From Escherichia coli (lineage in GTDB: Bacteria; Pseudomonadota; Gammaproteobacteria; Enterobacterales; Enterobacteriaceae): a DNA stretch of 64,000 nt. Shown here piece by piece: positions 47,378-57,726 of the stretch. How positions within the stretch are numbered: position 1 is the first letter of the stretch; the number at the start of each line of letters is the position of its first letter. The notes beneath the pieces were generated by a model. It saw only the letters and a list, made by a program, of their open reading frames with translations, did no database searches and was not told the DNA's origin. The stretch lies in assembly GCF_003018235.1 (NCBI RefSeq), contig NZ_CP027437.1; one strand, 5' to 3'. Both the position numbers and the translations under genes were made by a program.

Positions 47378-47410
47378 ATTCAACTTTTAAACCGTATAAC
47401 CAAACGTATA
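47378..47410. promoter_or_regulatory. Left-arm integrase binding repeats (cgtataaccaa / cgtataactaa)
   Basis: The same 11-mer family as the four copies between int and proL at 57450-57530. Confidence 0.55.
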
Positions 47411-47620
47411 ACTAAAATGATTTGCTGAAAAAGTGTACAATTTAAAGACAGATTTTCCCGGGGGTTATAAAACTGCGAAAATTTCGTAGTTATCCCGATA
47501 CGGGGATCACCATATCGGGATTGGATACCTGGCTTTTTTTCCGGTTAACTCTTAATCATCTGCGTGATCATAATGATGATTCAGCCAGCGCAATTTTGCG
47601 TTATCGGGAATATCAGCAAG

Positions 47621-48169: not shown

Positions 48170-50065
48170 TCAGCCGGAAGCCGTACCGCTCGATTTGACC
48201 ATGCCGCGATAGTCCAGCGCGGCCACACCGGCATCAATACGAACCTTCCAGGCGACACCGTCAACGATGAAGCCTTCCTGCTGTTCAAGGTAAGGCTCGT
48301 CATTACCATCAAGATAAGCCACCTCGATTGTGTCCGTTCCCTGTGCTGAAAGCATGTACCATTGATTCACACTAACATCATCCAGACGAGGATCGACAAT
48401 AATATCCAGTAGCTTGTGATACGGGTTAAATATGCCGCTGTTTTTATCGGCCCCGAAAGGTGCGGTTGAATTAATCATTTGCAACGCGCGATCTTCCAGT
48501 GCTGCCGGAACTAACAGGAATTTAGGTGCAATGTTCAGCACCTCGCCGTTTTTATCTTTCTGTATGCGCATAGCGTGACGTGCTGCACTAAGCCCCGGCG
48601 TCGTCATGCCAAGATCGATAAGGTTGTTGTGTTTTTTATCAAACAAGGCCACACCATCAGACAGCTTGCCGTTTCCTGTAAGTACCAGATTAACCAGATT
48701 GCCAACCGTTCTGGCTGCTGCACGCCCCATAGCCATTGGCACGGTAGACAACTGATCAAGGTCATCATTGATTATCGCCTGGCGGGTAATACTGAAAATA
48801 TTCCCGTATGTAGCCAGCGCGATTGGCTCACCGCGATCGCTGGTGGTGATGTATTTATATTCTGCCCCTTCCGGCACTTTGTTTAATGTTGAAAAACCAT
48901 TCAGGCCAACGCGGCGGGCTTCACGGAAGTTTGACAGAGAACCTTTTTTAGTCCACTGGCGGAATGTTTCGCCGCTGTGCTCCCAGCCTGCCAGCACTGA
49001 TTTTTCAGCGCCACCAGCCAGGATGTAAGTAAAATCGCTGCTGCTGTGAGTGAATGCCGCATTAACAATCTGCGAACGCGTGCTGTAGCTGCCTGTGCTT
49101 ATGCCACGATGGGTTAATGATGCCTGTGCCATATCGAAAAGGCTCATCATGGCGTAAGGATTGCCGCGTTCGGCCTGTTCGTGACCAAGACGTGCGTTAA
49201 GCCCCTGACGCATGGCATCGCCGGTTATGTTGCCGTTATCCGTATACGCGTAGTAAAGATTTGCGGGGGTGTTTTTGTTGGTGGGTGTCGATTCCTTGCC
49301 CATAGCCAATAAAAGGCGTTCGCGCGCATCCTCAACGCTACAACCTGCGTCTGCCAGGCAGTTAATAGCCAGGTCGTTATATTTCCCGTTGAACGTGCCA
49401 AACAATTCGCGAATGCCGTTTAGTCGTTCCTGTTCGCCGCTGGCTTTGTTCTGGTTGATCATGTTTTTGATACTTTCCGGCATATTTGAAAAATCTCCGA
49501 TTCGTTTTGATTCAATTCTGGCCATTGCTGTAATCGCGGGTATAACCTCATCTGCGAAGCCGTTAGCCTTACACTCATTGCCATCCATCCAGGTTTCCGC
49601 CTCCATCATGGCGGTGATTTCCTGTTTGCTTTTTCCCGTTCTTCCGGCGTAGGTTTCCGCCATCGTGTCGCCCAGCTTGTCCATCAGGTCAGCAAAGCGG
49701 CGAACGTCGCCCGACACGCCAGAAGTAACACCACGGGGGGCATGTATCATCATCATTGCGTTAGCGGGCATCACGATGTGATCGCCACACATGGCAATAA
49801 ACGAGGCCATAGAAGCCGCTATGCCTTCAATGTGTACGATTTTTTTCGCCGGATGATTTTTCAGGGCGTTATAGATAGCCAGCCCCTGAAAGATGTCGCC
49901 GCCTGGTGAATGGATACGCAAATGGATTTCAGACACGTCACCACACGCGCTTATCTGGTCGGTTAATGTTGACGCCTGTACACCGTAACCGCCTATTTCG
50001 TCATAAATGCGAACGTGAAGGGCGTCGGCTTTTGCCTGTATGCTGTACCAGGATTTCATAGCCAT
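48170..50065 (-). CDS. Prohead protease (ClpP/S49-like) fused to an HK97-fold major capsid protein
   Basis: 631 aa. The N-terminal roughly 200 aa have the ClpP-type motif HSPGGDIF and a Ser/His context. The C-terminal roughly 400 aa resemble HK97-family major capsid proteins. A terminator hairpin ggcggcaaatatgccgcc+T6 follows the stop. Confidence 0.7.
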   Translation of the reverse strand: MAMKSWYSIQAKADALHVRIYDEIGGYGVQASTLTDQISACGDVSEIHLRIHSPGGDIFQGLAIYNALKNHPAKKIVHIEGIAASMASFIAMCGDHIVMPANAMMMIHAPRGVTSGVSGDVRRFADLMDKLGDTMAETYAGRTGKSKQEITAMMEAETWMDGNECKANGFADEVIPAITAMARIESKRIGDFSNMPESIKNMINQNKASGEQERLNGIRELFGTFNGKYNDLAINCLADAGCSVEDARERLLLAMGKESTPTNKNTPANLYYAYTDNGNITGDAMRQGLNARLGHEQAERGNPYAMMSLFDMAQASLTHRGISTGSYSTRSQIVNAAFTHSSSDFTYILAGGAEKSVLAGWEHSGETFRQWTKKGSLSNFREARRVGLNGFSTLNKVPEGAEYKYITTSDRGEPIALATYGNIFSITRQAIINDDLDQLSTVPMAMGRAAARTVGNLVNLVLTGNGKLSDGVALFDKKHNNLIDLGMTTPGLSAARHAMRIQKDKNGEVLNIAPKFLLVPAALEDRALQMINSTAPFGADKNSGIFNPYHKLLDIIVDPRLDDVSVNQWYMLSAQGTDTIEVAYLDGNDEPYLEQQEGFIVDGVAWKVRIDAGVAALDYRGMVKSSGTASG

Positions 50066-50708: not shown

Positions 50709-50984
50709 TCACTTCTGCGGGTAGTTGCGCCATACTGCTTTACCAATACCAGCTATCCCCATTTGTTTTTCAGTGCGATTAACTGACCTTTTCAGAGCGC
50801 CTAAATCATCCGGCGGCTCCGGTGGCCTCTGTGCCTTCCTGGAACATTCCTGCCGTCGCATTGCCACCTGTGCGCGTTCCTTGTCTGTCTCCACCAGCAT
50901 CATCACTTCACCCCATCGCGCCGCCGCCCTCCTGTAAAATCCTTTCGCCTCGAGTTCCTCCGCTATACGGTCATGTACCATCAT
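50709..50984 (-). CDS. PerC-family transcriptional activator-like protein
   Basis: 91 aa with the N-terminal motif VHDRIAEELEAKGFYRRAAARW, typical of PerC/Pch-like proteins. A terminator hairpin gccggagcaatccggc+T6 follows the stop. Confidence 0.55.
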   Translation of the reverse strand: MMVHDRIAEELEAKGFYRRAAARWGEVMMLVETDKERAQVAMRRQECSRKAQRPPEPPDDLGALKRSVNRTEKQMGIAGIGKAVWRNYPQK

Positions 50985-51994
50985 TCACCACCTCCCGCAG
51001 ATGGCGATAAGCTGGCTTTGCCTCCAAGTGGATTAAACCTTATCGCCTCTGTCAGAAAATCCGGCGCAAAATGCGCGTAAACCATTGTCTGTTGTATGCT
51101 CGCGTGCCCCAGTATCCTTTGCAGTGTGATTATATTCCCCCCGTTCATCATGAAATGTGTCGCGAATGTGTGCCGTAATACGTGGGTGGCCTGGCCTTTT
51201 GGTAAGTCCGGTTTTACTGACTTGATGACCTCCCTGAACTCCAGATAATCCACATCAAACAACTGTCCCTTTTTACCTCTCGTTACAAGTTCCAGAACGT
51301 CATCAGACACCGGAACAGCTCGCGCCCGTCCGTTCTTCGTCTCCGTAAACATTACCTTGTTACTGACTATATTTTCCCGTCGTAGCGTCGATGACTCCCC
51401 ATAACGCGCCCCCGTCGAAAGACACAAAACAGCCAGCGCGAGACAGTCGCCTTTGGCAATATTCAGTAAATGATTAACCTCATCATCACCAAGAAAACTC
51501 ATAGCCTTGTTTGGTGCTTTCAGCTTGCGTAATCCACTCAAAGGGTTTTCACCGTGATACATACCGCATTCGATTAGCCCCCTGAACATTCCTGATATAA
51601 CCGACAAATCACGGTTAACAGTCAACGGACTAAGGCCGCATCCCAGCTTGTCGGCTCTGTATTCCATGAGCATTGCGCGGGTTATGTTGCAGATTCGTGG
51701 ATCCCCCATTTCACGGATAACCTTCATCATGCGCATAAACGATTGTTCGCCGTATTCCTCCGATCTTCCGATAAACTCCATCCATAAGTTAGCCAGATCA
51801 GATAACAGGCGAATATCTGCGGCGCGTGACTCCCAGGGCTTATTATGACAATGAAGCAGTATGTATTTTTCGTAATCACGGGCTTTTGTCTGCGAGGGAA
51901 AAATCTTTCTTATCCGTCGCCCGTAAGCGCCATTTGGCCTTACGTCAACCAGCCAGCGACCATCCTCACACTTCCTTATCGCCATGCTCCACAC
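50981..51994 (-). CDS. Internal tyrosine recombinase (phage integrase family)
   Basis: 337 aa with a C-terminal catalytic region HVLRHTFAT...HASIQQTMVYAHF (H-x-x-R ... Y). Overlapping start and stop with flanking genes. Confidence 0.75.
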   Translation of the reverse strand: MWSMAIRKCEDGRWLVDVRPNGAYGRRIRKIFPSQTKARDYEKYILLHCHNKPWESRAADIRLLSDLANLWMEFIGRSEEYGEQSFMRMMKVIREMGDPRICNITRAMLMEYRADKLGCGLSPLTVNRDLSVISGMFRGLIECGMYHGENPLSGLRKLKAPNKAMSFLGDDEVNHLLNIAKGDCLALAVLCLSTGARYGESSTLRRENIVSNKVMFTETKNGRARAVPVSDDVLELVTRGKKGQLFDVDYLEFREVIKSVKPDLPKGQATHVLRHTFATHFMMNGGNIITLQRILGHASIQQTMVYAHFAPDFLTEAIRFNPLGGKASLSPSAGGGE

Positions 51995-52226
51995 CCTTAA
52001 CGTTGATGGTTGTTACCTGTTCCGCTTCGGCTATCTCCCGTTCGGTCAGCGTGGCAAAGTTTGCCGCCGCTGTGGTCATGAATGCGCTTATCAGTTCGGG
52101 ATGTGCTTTCGCGTATCCTTCTCCCGTGTTGCGGTCTATCGTTCTGATTGCCACCTTTAAGGCGTGCTCTGTCATGTCTAATGCGCGATATTTTGGCGCT
52201 GCCTTATCTCTGGTTTTTCTGGTCAT
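51966..52226 (-). CDS. Hypothetical 86-aa protein
   Basis: ORF between the iterons and the internal recombinase; it overlaps the recombinase start. Confidence 0.4.
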   Translation of the reverse strand: MTRKTRDKAAPKYRALDMTEHALKVAIRTIDRNTGEGYAKAHPELISAFMTTAAANFATLTEREIAEAEQVTTINVKGVEHGDKEV

Positions 52227-52234
52227 TCCTCACC

Positions 52235-52430
52235 ACTCCTCACTTTTACTCCTCACTTTTTGTTATTCCTCGCCTGCTCCTCACCTGTTTTTTTTGCTTC
52301 TGTAATGCGTTGTTTTGCAATGTATTTTTTATTCCTCACTTTTTGACCTATATACAGGTGAGAAAGTGAGGAGTAGCGCTGATTTTTTGTTAAATTACTC
52401 GCTACCCTCACTTTTACTCCTCACTTTTTA
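52235..52430. repeat. Iteron array (CCTCACTTTTT, at least 6 direct copies and 1 inverted) - candidate origin of replication
   Basis: Copies at 52237, 52249, 52280 (variant), 52333, 52405, 52417 and an inverted gtgaggag at 52361. They lie immediately 3' of the rep gene, AT-rich, as in SaPI/PICI origins. Confidence 0.7.
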
Positions 52431-53828
52431 CAGTGGGTGCACATCATCGCCATCAATAGCGATTACGCCGTCACCTTCCAGCTTGTACAGCCAGCGCCGG
52501 AAATTTTTCATCTCATACCCCAGCTTTTTCATATCGTCGCGGAGAAGGGCGATAGTGCACGCCTCCCCGTGTGCTGTCCTCGTTCTGATGCACTGCCATA
52601 GCGCGGCGTGATTCTCCGTCTTGTTTCCGGCCTCCTCGATGCGCTCCAGTTCAACGGGTGGGCGCGGTTTATCCACAACCACCAGCGACGTGATTAACTC
52701 CCCGTCAGCGTCGGTAAAAAGCTCCACCACACGTAAATCGTATGCGGCCTCTTTCAGTTCCTCCGCGTCCTTCATTTTGGTGCAGGAGATAACCAGGGCT
52801 TCACAGTCCGCACCTTCACGGCGAATACGGTATTCAGCGTCCAGAGATGCACGAAATGCACTGGAACCACGCGCCCCTTTCGTCTCATCCTTGCCGGAAT
52901 GGTGAACCACCAGCACCGTGGCCCCTGTGCGTCGTTTCAGTTCGTCACATCCACGGATAAACGCCCCCATGTCACGGGAATCATTTTCATCATTGCCGCC
53001 AAAGCAACGCGCCAGCGTATCCAGAATAATCATGCGTACAGGTTTACCCGTTTCCCGCTCCACCTGGCTGGCTGCGATAACCATTTCATCAACATCAAGC
53101 GGGGCCGCCGGAAAAATGGGACGGTTTACCAGATACAGATTTTTCACCTGCTCACCGTGCACAACCTCCCAGGCTTTTACACGACGTGGAACGCCGATAC
53201 CGCCTTCACCAACCACATAGAGAACCGCACCATGTGCAACCCTGCGGCCTCCCCAGTAGCGACCTGTGGAAACGTGACACGCCCACGATCCGGCAAGGAA
53301 TGATTTATAGGAACCGCTCGCCCCGTATATGCTGCATAGCGATACCGCCGGAATAATTCCCTTAACCACGTAATCAAGTTGCGTGTCGTATCCGGCAGAA
53401 CCAATGCTCATCGGTAGTTTGGTTTTCCGCTGGTGGCTTTTTTCTTCCTCCTGCGCTTTACCGCGCTCCCGTTCCAGATATTCGCGCCAGTTCTCCCGCT
53501 TCTGGCTGTGCATCCCATCTGGGTAATAATTCGCATCCCGTACACCTGCTGCCGCCAGCTTTTGCGCTATGGCATTAATGCTCGATGGCTTGATATGGCC
53601 TGCCCTGTACAGACGGACGCAATAGCGGCCCTCGTCGATGATTCTCAGGTCTGGCAGTTCAGCCAGTTGATCATCAGCCAGCACAACGGGAGGCACATTA
53701 TCGCCAGCAAGTCGCCCGTCCTGCTCCTGCCACTGCTTCGCGTGTGCCCAGGCATCACTACCCGCAAAAATAATGACTTCTGTCATTTTGTCGTAAGGCT
53801 GTTTTCTTAAGTTCGGTGCGCTCTTCAT
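52428..53828 (-). CDS. Replication protein: RecA/DnaB-fold (RepA-like) AAA ATPase with an N-terminal extension
   Basis: 466 aa with Walker A GASGSYKS and Walker B MIILDTLAR, consistent with the RepA/primase-associated helicase-loader family of satellite elements. Confidence 0.7.
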   Translation of the reverse strand: MKSAPNLRKQPYDKMTEVIIFAGSDAWAHAKQWQEQDGRLAGDNVPPVVLADDQLAELPDLRIIDEGRYCVRLYRAGHIKPSSINAIAQKLAAAGVRDANYYPDGMHSQKRENWREYLERERGKAQEEEKSHQRKTKLPMSIGSAGYDTQLDYVVKGIIPAVSLCSIYGASGSYKSFLAGSWACHVSTGRYWGGRRVAHGAVLYVVGEGGIGVPRRVKAWEVVHGEQVKNLYLVNRPIFPAAPLDVDEMVIAASQVERETGKPVRMIILDTLARCFGGNDENDSRDMGAFIRGCDELKRRTGATVLVVHHSGKDETKGARGSSAFRASLDAEYRIRREGADCEALVISCTKMKDAEELKEAAYDLRVVELFTDADGELITSLVVVDKPRPPVELERIEEAGNKTENHAALWQCIRTRTAHGEACTIALLRDDMKKLGYEMKNFRRWLYKLEGDGVIAIDGDDVHPL

Positions 53829-54121
53829 TTGCCTTTTCTCCCTCTGGCTATCTGGTTGCGTAACTCCGCTATGTGCTGTGCTATCGTTCCTGAATCATCA
53901 CAGCAATATTTCTTTTCCTTCAGAGGCGTAAAATCCTTCTCAAATTGCAACCGGAACATCACATTCTCAAATAAATATCCAGAACGTATAAAAGTAATAA
54001 ATGTGCTGTTAACTCTCGTCACTGTCACATAATTACCGTCACCATCCAGATAAATATCACCTTTAATAATTTCAGGGCGAGGAAGGCCGCTGGCAGTTGC
54101 GCCAGTATTTTTCTTTTTCAT
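53825..54121 (-). CDS. Hypothetical 98-aa protein
   Basis: ORF overlapping the rep start by 4 nt (coupled). No recognisable domain. Confidence 0.45.
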   Translation of the reverse strand: MKKKNTGATASGLPRPEIIKGDIYLDGDGNYVTVTRVNSTFITFIRSGYLFENVMFRLQFEKDFTPLKEKKYCCDDSGTIAQHIAELRNQIARGRKGK

Positions 54122-54137
54122 GGTATTTACCTTTCTG

Positions 54138-54419
54138 TTATTCGTCGTTCTGAATAAAACGTTGTTCTCTTATTTCAGAAAGTATCCTGTAAACATTCTT
54201 ATCACTTACCACTTGATGATAATCATCATCCTCAATAAAACACATCAGCGCCTTATTACGGATATATATTTCTCTGGAAAGAAACTGTATCGCCGCGACT
54301 GCCCTTTCTTCTGTAATTCCGTTCATTGACTCACGTTCAATAATAATATTAAGTGCGGCGGATGCGTCTTCCAGTTCAATAAGGTAAGCAGCGAGGTTAT
54401 TTTTTATTCCATTAGACAT
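54138..54419 (-). CDS. Hypothetical 93-aa acidic protein
   Basis: ORF in the operon upstream of rep. Confidence 0.45.
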   Translation of the reverse strand: MSNGIKNNLAAYLIELEDASAALNIIIERESMNGITEERAVAAIQFLSREIYIRNKALMCFIEDDDYHQVVSDKNVYRILSEIREQRFIQNDE

Positions 54420-54615
54420 GGCTCACCCCCTGACAGATTTTTGCAGCGAATACAGCAACACAACCGGACGGGCAAAGGTTACGCGCTTCGCGTTCCGTCC
54501 AGGCGGTTACGTGGATGATTTGATGGTCTGACGCGCCAAAGGCAATAAAGCGCCAGGTGAATTTATTCAGGTTGTGCGAGTCCCGCCCTTGCGGGTGTGT
54601 GATATGATTTAACAT
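54412..54615 (-). CDS. Hypothetical 67-aa protein (MLNHITHPQGRD...); the real gene inside the 353-aa six-frame ORF
   Basis: ATG at 54615 with a GAGGT RBS 6 nt upstream. The rest of the 54412..55473 ORF runs antisense through a promoter region and other genes and is implausible. Confidence 0.5.
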   Translation of the reverse strand: MLNHITHPQGRDSHNLNKFTWRFIAFGASDHQIIHVTAWTEREARNLCPSGCVAVFAAKICQGVSHV

Positions 54616-54712
54616 AGCTACCTCGATACTATTGCTATCGTTGGTGGTTAGAAGCCTGTGGGTGTTAGCGGCACCTACGGGCTTCGCAGTTTCTGAACCT
54701 TGAACACTCAAG

Positions 54713-54794
54713 GTGTAAGACACAACATAAAACAACAGTGTCTTACACGTCAACCCTTTAAAATAGTTTTTTTTCGTGTATATTGTCTTACACC
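54713..54794. promoter_or_regulatory. Divergent promoter/operator region with three GTGTCTTACAC sites (one inverted)
   Basis: gtgtaagacac at 54713, gtgtcttacac at 54739 and tgtcttacacc at 54784. They lie between the minus-strand 67-aa gene and the plus-strand 61-aa gene. Confidence 0.6.
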
Positions 54795-54814
54795 AAAAAC
54801 ATGAGGGGTTAGAC

Positions 54815-55000
54815 ATGGCAACAGGTCCAAAGAATGCAAAATCACAATCTGTAACTGCACGTATTGCCCATGAAATTATTGAAGGCATGGAAAACGTGAA
54901 AGAAGATGGCGAAAGTACAGGGCAGTTTATAAGCGCAGCCATGCGTGGCGAGATCAAACGCCGCCAACGGAAAAAAACCAAAGAATCAGATAAGGAATAA
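54815..55000 (+). CDS. Small 61-aa basic protein (MATGPKNAKSQS...), candidate repressor/regulator of the switch region
   Basis: ATG at 54815 preceded by a GAGGGG RBS. The six-frame ORF begins at an upstream GTG at 54776, inside operator site 3. Confidence 0.45.
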   Translation: MATGPKNAKSQSVTARIAHEIIEGMENVKEDGESTGQFISAAMRGEIKRRQRKKTKESDKE

Positions 55001-55003
55001 CTT

Positions 55004-55147
55004 ATGCAGCAAGTACTATACTGGCTTGGCTCTTTGTTTTTATTTGCTTTCCTCCTGGGAAATTGCATCAGCAATGAACACGTCAGTAATGAGCGTGTAT
55101 GCAGGAGTGATGAAAAAAAGATTCCACGCCTCATATACAATGATTGA
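55004..55147 (+). CDS. Candidate 47-aa hydrophobic peptide (MQQVLYWLGSLFLFAFLLGNC...)
   Basis: ATG 4 nt after the upstream stop, with an AAGGAA RBS. It has a single predicted TM helix. It is below the 60-aa ORF cut-off, and a competing 68-aa ORF lies in another frame at 54945..55151. Confidence 0.25.
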   Translation: MQQVLYWLGSLFLFAFLLGNCISNEHVSNERVCRSDEKKIPRLIYND

Positions 55148-55477
55148 TTAGCTCGTGCAGCACTAAAGCAACGCAAGGCCAAAGAGCAGGAATAGCCCAC
55201 CAGCAAGCCAGCGCACTGATCACATTGCCCACCAGCCGCAAATGTGGCATTGTTGGCTATGCTCATGCGTTGGGGATAACGTGTAGCTTGTGTCGAGGGG
55301 CCACCGTAGCGGGTGGCCTTTGTTTTGCCTGTTATCCGGCAATTGTGGCGCTTCGCCACACGGTTGATATAATTCCCCTGCACTGATCCATTTTTTTCGC
55401 AGCAGGTTAATTGTTCGCAAGGGCGCTCCGGCAACGGGGCGCTTTTTGTTATGTTCATCGCGTTACGCCTCACACCA

Positions 55478-57449: not shown

Positions 57450-57530
57450 GAAAAAATGGGGTTTTAGTTATACGGCTTTAGTTATACGTCAGCCCGTATA
57501 ACTAAACGTATAACTAAAAAATCCGGCTGA
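57450..57530. promoter_or_regulatory. attR-proximal integrase arm-type sites (TTAGTTATACG x2, CGTATAACTAA x2)
   Basis: Four 11-mers in alternating orientation between the int start and proL. The same motif occurs at the left end of the island. Confidence 0.6.
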
Positions 57531-57649: not shown

Positions 57650-57726
57650 TGGTCGGCACGAGAGGATTTGAACCTCCGACCCCCGACACCCCATGACGGT
57701 GCGCTACCAGGCTGCGCTACGTGCCG
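57650..57726 (-). tRNA. proL: tRNA-Pro (GGG)
   Basis: Plus strand is the exact reverse complement of CGGCACGUAGCGCAGCCUGGUAGCGCACCGUCAUGGGGUGUCGGGGGUCGGAGGUUCAAAUCCUCUCGUGCCGACCA. Confidence 0.95.

What the first reader, a model, noticed from the sequence alone, without database searches (positions are those of the whole stretch)
52235..52430. Iteron-type origin immediately 3' of the rep gene
At least six direct CCTCACTTTTT repeats plus one inverted copy, in AT-rich context, directly follow the stop of the 466-aa RepA-like ATPase. This is the SaPI/PICI ori architecture, in which the replication initiator binds iterons downstream of its own gene. It supports an autonomously replicating, helper-induced element.
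Basis: seen in the sequence. Interest (0 to 1): 0.5.

Follow-up and report, generated by a model that had tools for sequence, protein, structure and literature searches.

The report
Replication origin of a phage satellite
The repeat cluster is real and is almost certainly the replication origin of a small phage-satellite island (PICI) in E. coli, bound by the helicase encoded just upstream; this origin layout is already published, so it is a well-supported but ordinary find.

Summary
In 52228-52429 there are 10 copies of one short motif (CCTCAC on the + strand, AAAAGTGAGG on the gene strand). Eight are direct, one is inverted, and one is an inverted half-site. CCTCAC occurs 8 times here against 0.04 expected. 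The cluster starts on the stop codon of a 466-aa RepA-family helicase and ends at the start of the next gene.

The roughly 10-kb island next to tRNA-Pro has the gene order of EcCICFT073, whose rep-ori segment was shown to replicate (Fillol-Salom 2018). The repeats occupy the same slot as that origin.

In 70 informative homologous loci, the residue before recognition-helix 3 (K-X-F-x-R-W) tracks the base after GTG in the repeat: N with A, H or K with G, S with C, without exception. Flanking genes and the Rep N-terminal domain do not track repeat type.

Nothing was tested functionally. Verdict: a new member of a known kind. The helicase core is RecA-fold (SF4-like), unlike the SF3 or SF6 cores of characterised SaPI Reps. 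Interest is modest.

The parts
52428..53828 (-). rep gene: a 466-aa RepA-family helicase. It has an N-terminal domain (residues 1-125), a RecA-fold AAA_25 ATPase core (residues 147-315 by Pfam) and a C-terminal winged-helix domain.
   Evidence: ORF. Pfam AAA_25 at E=5e-42. Annotated 'helicase RepA family protein' in RefSeq. The fold search of the full model hits RadA/Rad51 RecA-fold cores. The protein matches phrog_2850 over its full length.
52431..52643 (-). Coding region for the predicted C-terminal winged-helix domain of Rep (residues 396-466), the proposed iteron reader. The Asn442 codon is 52503-52505.
   Evidence: AF2 models give pLDDT 85-95, with helices 405-419, 426-435 and 443-452 followed by a beta hairpin. 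Foldseek matches DtxR/IdeR, IclR, MarR and LexA winged-helix DNA-binding domains at TM about 0.6-0.68 and rmsd 2.0-2.6 A, with weak E-values as expected for a 65-residue domain. Residue 442 is the only two-state Rep column that separates iteron classes.
52406..52429 (-). Rep-proximal iteron block: two direct copies (cores 52406-52411 and 52419-52424). The second overlaps the rep stop codon.
   Evidence: The positions are conserved in 10 E. coli loci and in other genera.
52376..52405 (.). Spacer 2 (30 bp, 63% A+T). It contains the least stable 20-mer of the neighbourhood (52381-52400).
52334..52375 (.). Central inverted pair of iterons: a direct core at 52334-52339, an inverted core at 52366-52371 and an inverted half-site at 52357-52363. 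They flank a conserved TATATACA centre (52349-52356).
   Evidence: Inverted repeat I1, 23-nt arms, 83% complementary. The T.TATACA columns are invariant in 10 E. coli loci. A TGTATATA-like centre between an inverted pair is present in all four iteron classes across genera.
52286..52333 (.). AT-rich spacer 1 (48 bp, 75% A+T), the candidate unwinding region.
   Evidence: Its stacking free energy is at the 98th percentile of all 48-mers in the window. Its sequence varies between loci while its length is kept.
52228..52284 (-). Rep-distal iteron block: five direct copies (cores at 52228, 52238, 52251, 52268 [CCTCGC] and 52279). The last copy on the gene strand abuts the ATG of the 86-aa ORF and supplies AGGAG/GAGG Shine-Dalgarno-like sequence.
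51966..52226 (-). 86-aa ORF immediately downstream of the origin. It is conserved across islands whatever their iteron type.
   Evidence: It is 88% identical to the ORF downstream of the EcCICFT073 ori, where the iterons are unrelated. It matches phrog_1231.

Best explanation
The 52228-52429 region is the replication origin of an EcCICFT073-type phage-inducible chromosomal island.

The proposed mechanism is as follows.
1. When the island's operon is switched on (by AlpA, by analogy with EcCICFT073), the 466-aa Rep is made.
2. Rep's C-terminal winged-helix domain binds the roughly 10 GTGAGG iterons. These lie in three blocks: 2 at the rep stop, an inverted pair around a TATATACA centre, and 5 before the next gene.
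3. The RecA-fold (RepA/DnaB-like) core assembles into hexamers. DNA opens at the TATATACA centre and/or the 48-bp AT-rich spacer.
4. Rep then acts as its own replicative helicase without DnaA, DnaB or DnaC, and host primase and Pol III do the rest.

What is shown here: the repeat cluster, its position, its conservation, concerted repeat changes linked to Rep residue 442 and its equivalents, the predicted winged-helix fold, and positional equivalence to a tested origin.

What is inferred: binding, melting site, self-loading, helicase polarity, and dependence on host factors.
For: - The cluster is highly non-random and unique in the window.
- It sits in the same genomic slot as the EcCICFT073 ori, between Rep and an 88%-identical 85/86-aa ORF and downstream of DUF4222. 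The EcCICFT073 rep-ori was shown to support plasmid replication (PMC6092414).
- In 10 E. coli relatives the roughly 200-bp region keeps the same repeat positions. All copies change together: CCTCAC, CCCCAC, CTCAC or GCCCAC.
- In 70 informative of 88 loci from more than 20 genera, the residue X in K-X-F-x-R-W predicts the base after GTG. N goes with A in 28 of 28 loci, H with G in 13 of 13, K with G in 22 of 22, and S with C in 7 of 7.
- Among the E. coli Reps, position 442 is the only clean two-state column that separates iteron classes. The last 48 residues of the window and L002 Reps differ at 4 positions, yet every iteron switches from A to G.
- Residue 442 sits at the N-cap of helix 3 of a confidently predicted winged helix.
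- Other candidates do not track iteron type. L002 and L005 carry the identical DUF4222 protein but different iterons. The Rep N-terminal domain type differs between L002 and L004, which share iterons. The 86-aa ORF and the Rep N-terminal domain are conserved in CFT073, whose iterons are unrelated.
- No DnaA box with 2 or fewer mismatches, no sigma-70 promoter and no terminator was found in the region.
- Relatives with the same three-block layout or the same island type exist as small circular records: CP018459.1 (17 kb) and NZ_CP148328.1 (10.8 kb).
- The SaPI precedent is an initiator-helicase with a C-terminal winged helix that reads iterons 3' of rep (PMC9371898).
Against: - No functional data exist for this element or this Rep type. 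The tested EcCICFT073 Rep has an unrelated (SF3, D5-like) helicase and DNA-binding part, so the experimental support is by position and analogy only.
- The covariation counts are not phylogenetically independent. I can point to only two clearly independent N/H switches within E. coli, plus the deeper class splits.
- The helicase core of the AF2 model is poorly predicted (mean pLDDT 67).
- Foldseek E-values for the winged helix are weak, 0.05 or worse.
- The island ends (att sites) were not resolved, so the integrity of the element is not proven.
- The circular 'plasmid' records could be assembly products of induced or excised islands rather than stable replicons.
Confidence: 0.85

Rival explanations
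1. The repeats are Rep-binding sites with a purely regulatory role. They might act as a transcriptional roadblock or autoregulator between rep and the downstream operon, or in copy-number 'handcuffing'. The true initiation site would then lie elsewhere.
For: The cluster lies inside a co-directional operon with no predicted terminator or promoter. The distal iterons overlap the ribosome-binding region and abut the ATG of the 86-aa ORF, so bound Rep could modulate downstream expression. Iterons in plasmids are known to do both jobs (established knowledge of iteron plasmids).
Against: There is no second iteron cluster in the island that could serve as the real origin. The cluster has the inverted pair, easily melted centre and AT-rich spacer expected of an origin. 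The equivalent region in EcCICFT073 is required for replication (PMC6092414). A regulatory role would add to origin function rather than exclude it.
Confidence: 0.07
2. The repeats are binding sites for a different protein, such as a packaging (cos/pac) recognition site for a terminase small subunit, or an operator for AlpA, PerC, DUF4222 or the 86-aa protein.
For: Phage satellites carry packaging sites made of short repeats. Several small DNA-binding proteins are encoded nearby.
Against: Repeat type follows the Rep C-terminal domain and not the neighbours. DUF4222 is identical in L002 and L005, which have different repeats. The 86-aa ORF is 88% conserved in CFT073, where the repeats are unrelated. 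This island encodes no terminase, yet shares the repeat layout with elements that do.
Confidence: 0.04
3. The cluster is a chance or low-complexity feature, or a decayed remnant with no present function.
For: The region is T-rich and pyrimidine-skewed on the + strand. The island differs from fuller relatives, having no SSB and no portal or terminase.
Against: P is about 1e-16 for the hexamer cluster. Five 10-mers are exact. Repeat positions are conserved across E. coli and other genera, with concerted changes. Rep is full length, with intact Walker A (GASGSYKS) and conserved motifs.
Confidence: 0.02

Closest known systems
EcCICFT073 and other Gram-negative PICI origins (Fillol-Salom et al. 2018, ISME J, PMC6092414)
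   Same: The island shares gene order with EcCICFT073: int, AlpA, Icd-like, DUF4222, Rep, ori, 85/86-aa ORF, PerC, capsid gene, and a terminal 93-aa ORF. The origin sits immediately 3' of rep, with sets of iterons flanking an AT-rich stretch. The first 125 residues of Rep are 66% identical and the downstream ORF is 88% identical.
   Different: The remainder of Rep is unrelated. EcCICFT073 has D5_N/DUF5906/Pox_D5 domains (SF3), whereas this Rep has AAA_25 (RecA fold) plus a winged helix. The iterons are also unrelated: TCTACC/GGTAGA there, GTGAGG here. The helicase, DNA-binding domain and iterons look exchanged as one cassette. The paper mentions four Pri-Rep 'allelic variants' in E. coli PICIs. 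I could not see its Fig. 2a to check whether this type is drawn there.
SaPI origins and Rep self-loading helicases (Ubeda et al.; Qiao et al. 2022, NAR, PMC9371898)
   Same: The logic is the same: N-terminal domain, ATPase and C-terminal winged helix in one initiator-helicase; 6-12 penta- or hexanucleotide iterons directly after the rep ORF; an AT-rich region inside the cluster; and iteron specificity residing in the C-terminal domain.
   Different: SaPI Reps are SF3 or SF6 (MCM-like) AAA+ helicases that translocate 3'-5'. This Rep has a RecA-fold RepA/DnaB-like core, for which 5'-3' polarity would be expected (an inference). The layout here has three blocks with a single inverted pair around a TATATACA centre, rather than two opposed half-sets.
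cf-PICIs such as EcCIEDL933 (Alqurainy et al., bioRxiv 10.1101/2022.09.08.507074)
   Same: The O157:H7 element L002 and the K. pneumoniae record CP018459.1 carry the same Rep family and the same three-block origin, together with a full capsid and packaging module.
   Different: The window island has only a ClpP-protease/major-capsid fusion gene. It has no portal, connector or terminase genes, so it does not meet the cf-PICI definition.
IncQ plasmid RSF1010 RepA helicase and RepC-iteron system
   Same: The Rep core belongs to the same Pfam family (AAA_25, 'helicase RepA family'), and replication starts at iterons next to an AT-rich segment (established knowledge of IncQ replication).
   Different: In RSF1010 the iteron binder (RepC), the helicase (RepA) and the primase (RepB) are separate proteins. 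Here the helicase carries its own winged-helix iteron reader and no primase domain is detectable.
Satellite phage P4 alpha protein with ori and crr
   Same: Both are satellite elements of E. coli with an initiator-helicase that binds short repeats through a C-terminal DNA-binding domain. AlpA/Vis-like and Icd-like genes are also present.
   Different: P4 alpha is a primase plus SF3 helicase and needs two separated repeat sites (ori and crr). Only one cluster exists here, and the helicase class differs.

Membership tests
SaPI/PICI-type replication origin | The origin lies immediately 3' of the replication-initiator gene. | tested here: met
   The first iteron overlaps the rep TAA stop at 52428-52430.
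SaPI/PICI-type replication origin | About 6-12 short (penta- or hexanucleotide core) iterons are present. | tested here: met
   There are 10 sites with a GTGAGG core: 8 direct, 1 inverted and 1 inverted half-site.
SaPI/PICI-type replication origin | An AT-rich region lies inside the cluster, with iterons on both sides. | tested here: met
   A 48-bp spacer of 75% A+T and a 30-bp spacer are each flanked by iterons. The least stable 20-mers of the neighbourhood lie here.
SaPI/PICI-type replication origin | [quoted passage not shown] | tested here: inconclusive
   Only one inverted copy and one half-site oppose the other eight. The outer blocks share one orientation.
SaPI/PICI-type replication origin | The initiator is a helicase with a C-terminal winged-helix domain that sets iteron specificity. 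| tested here: met
   By prediction and covariation only: AAA_25 core, winged-helix model and fold matches, and residue 442 class tracking the iteron base in 70 of 70 informative loci.
SaPI/PICI-type replication origin | Rep binds the iterons, and rep-ori drives autonomous replication. | not testable with these tools
   This needs EMSA or footprinting and a plasmid-maintenance assay.
Gram-negative PICI (EcCICFT073 type) | The element is about 10-15 kb, with int at one end, an AlpA regulator, a rep-ori module, unidirectional transcription and no lysis or tail genes. | tested here: met
   About 10.4 kb lies between the yejO pseudogene and tRNA-Pro. Int, AlpA and Rep are all on the minus strand, and the gene order matches CFT073.
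Gram-negative PICI (EcCICFT073 type) | Defined att sites flank the island. | tested here: inconclusive
   A 16-bp direct repeat occurs at 47402 and 57504. The empty site reconstructed from it is found in no E. coli genome.
Gram-negative PICI (EcCICFT073 type) | A helper phage induces the island, which is then packaged and transferred. | not testable with these tools
   This is an experimental property.
cf-PICI (capsid-forming PICI) | The element encodes its own capsid, protease, portal, connectors and small and large terminase subunits. | tested here: not met
   Only a ClpP-protease/MCP fusion is present. No portal or terminase is annotated or detected.
Classical iteron plasmid origin (Rep_3/RepA-WH1-WH2 type, e.g. 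pPS10, F, R6K) | A Rep_3-type dimeric initiator works with DnaA boxes and depends on host DnaB/DnaC. | tested here: not met
   Pfam finds only AAA_25 in Rep. No DnaA box with 2 or fewer mismatches lies in 52150-52500.
P4-like satellite replicon | An alpha-type primase/SF3 helicase acts on two separate repeat sites (ori and crr). | tested here: not met
   There is a single cluster in the island, and the helicase is AAA_25 rather than D5/SF3.

The most novel reading that the evidence does not exclude
This Rep/ori pair may represent an uncharacterised class of self-loading initiator-helicase. It would be built on a RecA-fold (SF4-like) core rather than the SF3 or SF6 cores known from SaPIs. Its origin specificity would be set largely by one residue at the N-cap of the winged-helix recognition helix: Asn reading A, His or Lys reading G, and Ser reading C at the base after GTG. 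That would define at least four replicon specificity groups across Enterobacterales. The helicase, winged helix and iterons would move as a swappable cassette behind a common N-terminal domain that is shared with the SF3-type EcCICFT073 Pri-Rep.
Probability: 0.45. Interest if true: 0.45.

Novelty: new member of a known kind. Interest (0 to 1): 0.3.

Why it matters
The origin marks this 10-kb island as a probable self-replicating phage satellite. The island carries a PerC-family virulence regulator and sits in a commensal-type E. coli.

The comparison also yields a simple, testable recognition rule: one amino acid paired with one iteron base. That rule could predict which satellite replicons cross-react or are incompatible, and it could be used to build orthogonal replicons.

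The origin architecture itself is already published for E. coli PICIs and for SaPIs. The gain is therefore in annotation and detail, not in concept.

Tried and rejected
- Sigma-70 promoter and intrinsic terminator scans of 51800-52800 found nothing. I dropped the idea that the repeats frame a promoter or terminator.
- DnaA-box (2 or fewer mismatches), IHF-consensus and GATC scans of 52150-52500 found nothing.
- A PDB sequence search with Rep gave no hit. The Foldseek search of the full-length model returned only generic RecA-fold hits. The C-terminal domain had to be modelled alone to see the winged helix.
- For the island ends, I took the 16-bp direct repeat at 47402 and 57504 as a candidate att core. 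The reconstructed empty site matched no E. coli genome over 80% or more of its length, so the boundaries stay unresolved.
- Literature searches for the iteron strings returned only unrelated primer matches. The iteron sequences of Fillol-Salom 2018 Fig. 2a are not in the searchable text, so I could not check whether this exact iteron type has been drawn before.
- I considered DUF4222, the 86-aa ORF and the Rep N-terminal domain as the iteron binder. All were rejected because they do not track iteron type.
- I considered filing the island as a cf-PICI. This was rejected because portal and terminase genes are absent.

Full report
**What is in the sequence**

The genes here run on the minus strand. 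A 466-aa ORF (52428-53828) ends with TAA at 52428-52430, and an 86-aa ORF starts at 52226. The 201-bp gap between them is packed with one short motif. It reads CCTCAC(TTTT) on the + strand and AAAAGTGAGG on the gene strand.

- The exact 10-mer CCTCACTTTT occurs five times (52238, 52251, 52334, 52406, 52419) and nowhere else in the 64-kb window.
- At the hexamer level there are eight direct copies. Seven are CCTCAC (52228, 52238, 52251, 52279, 52334, 52406, 52419) and one is CCTCGC (52268).
- There is one inverted copy (52366-52371) and an inverted half-site (52357-52363).
- CCTCAC on either strand occurs 20 times in the window. Eight of those lie in 211 bp, against 0.04 expected (P about 1e-16).
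- There is no second cluster in the island.

The sites form three blocks:
- two copies at the rep stop (52406-52429);
- an inverted pair around a TATATACA centre (52334-52375);
- five copies reaching the next gene's ATG (52228-52284).

The blocks are separated by a 30-bp spacer and a 48-bp spacer of 75% A+T. These spacers hold the least stable 20-mers of the neighbourhood.

**The element**

The window matches the E. coli SCU-111 chromosome. Identity is 100% over 51900-54200 and about 98% across most of the island, with a replaced segment at 54994-55398, so the window probably comes from a related strain.

About 10.4 kb lies between the yejO pseudogene and tRNA-Pro (57650-57726). It encodes, all on the minus strand:
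- a tyrosine integrase;
- an AlpA-family regulator;
- an Icd-like protein;
- a DUF4222 protein;
- the RepA-family helicase (Pfam AAA_25, E=5e-42);
- the repeat region;
- the 86-aa ORF;
- a second integrase-like gene;
- a PerC-family regulator;
- a ClpP-protease/major-capsid fusion;
- a terminal 93-aa ORF.

This is the gene order of EcCICFT073, the prototype Gram-negative PICI, which I located in CFT073 next to phoQ. In EcCICFT073 the 288-bp gap after the Pri-Rep gene holds its own iterons (TCTACC/GGTAGA). The ORF that follows is 88% identical to the window's 86-aa ORF.

Fillol-Salom et al. [quoted passage not shown] They also showed that the EcCICFT073 rep-ori segment, but not ori or rep deletions, maintains a temperature-sensitive plasmid (PMC6092414). 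The window's repeats occupy that same slot.

**Who reads the repeats**

Homologous regions from nine other E. coli genomes keep the same roughly 200-bp length and the same repeat positions. The core changes in all copies at once: CCTCAC, CCCCAC, CTCAC or GCCCAC.

I then examined 80 further loci from other Enterobacterales, including Xenorhabdus, Serratia, Pectobacterium, Morganella, Pantoea, Kosakonia, Kluyvera and Erwinia. The region after the rep stop again holds a three-block iteron array with an inverted pair around a TGTATATA-like centre. It comes in four sequence classes.

The class is predicted by one residue, X, in the C-terminal motif K-X-F-x-R-W:

| Residue X | Iteron | Loci agreeing (of those with 3 or more scorable sites) |
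|---|---|---|
| Asn | GTGAGG | 28 of 28 |
| His | GTGGGG | 13 of 13 |
| Lys | GTGGGGG | 22 of 22 |
| Ser | GTGCGG | 7 of 7 |

There are no exceptions.

- Among the ten E. coli Reps, position 442 (N or H) is the only clean two-state column that separates the iteron classes.
- The window and L002 differ at only four of the last 48 residues, yet every iteron differs.
- A second N/H switch occurs in a different C-terminal background (L005 against L009).
- AlphaFold models place residues 400-466 in a confident (pLDDT 85-95) helix-helix-helix-hairpin fold. Residue 442 caps helix 3.
- Foldseek matches this domain to the winged-helix DNA-binding domains of DtxR/IdeR, IclR, MarR and LexA, at TM about 0.6-0.68 and rmsd 2.0-2.6 A, with weak E-values as expected for 65 residues.
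- The pairings Asn with adenine, and Lys or His with guanine, fit general protein-DNA recognition preferences (established knowledge, not tested here).

Other candidates fail the same test:
- The identical DUF4222 protein accompanies different iterons in L002 and L005.
- L002 and L004 share iterons but have different Rep N-terminal domains.
- The 86-aa ORF and the Rep N-terminal 125 residues are conserved in CFT073, where the helicase (D5_N/DUF5906/Pox_D5, SF3) and the iterons are both unrelated.

The helicase core, winged helix and iterons therefore behave as one exchangeable cassette.

**Mechanism proposed**

Rep binds the iterons through its winged helix and assembles on the DNA. It opens the duplex at the TATATACA centre and/or the AT-rich spacer, and then serves as its own replicative helicase.

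- The absence of DnaA boxes fits a self-loading initiator-helicase.
- This is the logic described for SaPI Reps: N-terminal domain, ATPase, C-terminal winged helix, and 6-12 iterons right after rep with an AT-rich centre (PMC9371898).
- The difference is the motor. SaPI Reps are SF3 or SF6, whereas this one has a RecA fold. A 5'-3' polarity is therefore expected, which is an inference.
- No primase domain is detectable, so host DnaG would be needed, which is also an inference.
- No promoter or terminator is predicted in the gap. The distal iterons overlap the ribosome-binding region of the next gene, so Rep binding may also affect downstream expression. I keep this as a minor, non-exclusive rival.

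**Supporting context**

- The same Rep family and origin layout occur in full capsid-forming relatives, such as L002 in O157:H7.
- They also occur in a 16,971-bp circular K. pneumoniae record deposited as a plasmid (CP018459.1). That record carries an RKSFPRWL Rep and GTGCGGCA iterons.
- A 10.8-kb circular E. coli record (NZ_CP148328.1) is the same island type, with another Rep variant.
- These records are consistent with episomal forms but could be assembly products.
- No deposited phage genome carries a close homologue; the best phage hits are below 60% identity and partial.

**Limits**

- Nothing here tests binding or replication.
- The experimental precedent (EcCICFT073) uses a different helicase and different iterons, so it supports position and architecture only.
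- Covariation counts are inflated by shared ancestry.
- The att sites were not resolved.
- I could not see the figure in the 2018 paper that lists iteron sequences.

**Verdict**

This is a new member of a known kind, an E. coli PICI origin. It comes with a neat and apparently undescribed residue-to-base specificity rule and a RecA-fold initiator-helicase. Interest is modest (0.3).

Noticed in passing
window 53454-53828 (-), Rep residues 1-125; L092 11242-11616: The Rep N-terminal domain is 66% identical to the N-terminus of the EcCICFT073 Pri-Rep, but the rest of the two proteins belongs to different helicase superfamilies (AAA_25 RecA fold against D5_N/DUF5906/Pox_D5 SF3). The domain has no Pfam hit, is confidently modelled as an alpha/beta fold, and weakly matches part of a PHROG 'DNA primase' family.
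   Followed up: partly
window 50981-51994 (-): A second tyrosine recombinase (337 aa, Int_N plus Phage_integrase) sits where relatives carry an SSB gene, between the 86-aa ORF and PerC. The island therefore has two integrase-family genes.
   Followed up: no
window 48170-50065 (-): A 631-aa ClpP-protease/major-capsid fusion is the only morphogenesis gene. No portal, connector or terminase is present. The same fusion occurs in islands L004, L008, L009 and in the circular record L094.
   Followed up: partly
L093 (CP018459.1, 16,971 bp) and L094 (NZ_CP148328.1, 10,790 bp): Two records deposited as small non-mobilizable circular 'plasmids' are in fact PICI or cf-PICI-like elements, with int, AlpA, Rep, iterons and capsid genes. 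They suggest episomal or excised forms captured by assembly.
   Followed up: partly
L092 13180-13225; L039, L041, L042, L084, L088, L093 origin spacers: A CATTACTGG-containing hairpin lies in the AT-rich spacer of many origins. It is present whatever the iteron class or helicase type, including EcCICFT073, but it is not recognisable in the window's own spacer. It might be a priming or host-factor signal.
   Followed up: no
window 52349-52356 and the equivalent position in all loci: A TGTATATA/TATATACA-like centre between the inverted iteron pair is conserved across all four iteron classes and many genera. It is invariant in the 10 E. coli loci.
   Followed up: partly
L012, L019, L034, L089 (Xenorhabdus): A sub-group keeps Asn at the key position but has ATGAGGAAT iterons instead of GTGAGGA. 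These loci share a distinct wing sequence (KLENDGLITRN...QRNDD), which hints at a second specificity contact.
   Followed up: no
window 54412-55473 (-) and 54994-55398: A 353-aa minus-strand ORF with no Pfam hit spans the region where SCU-111 has an Icd-like gene and two plus-strand small genes. The window also differs from SCU-111 by a replaced segment here, so the window comes from a related but not identical strain.
   Followed up: no
window 47402-47417 and 57504-57519: The 16-bp direct repeat AAACGTATAACTAAAA lies near both island ends and is a candidate att core. The reconstructed empty site was not found in any of 5426 E. coli genomes, so the island boundaries remain open.
   Followed up: yes
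window 50709-50984 (-): A PerC-family transcriptional activator (Pfam E=6.5e-39) is carried as island cargo. PICI-borne PerC homologues have been reported to activate the LEE pathogenicity island.
   Followed up: no
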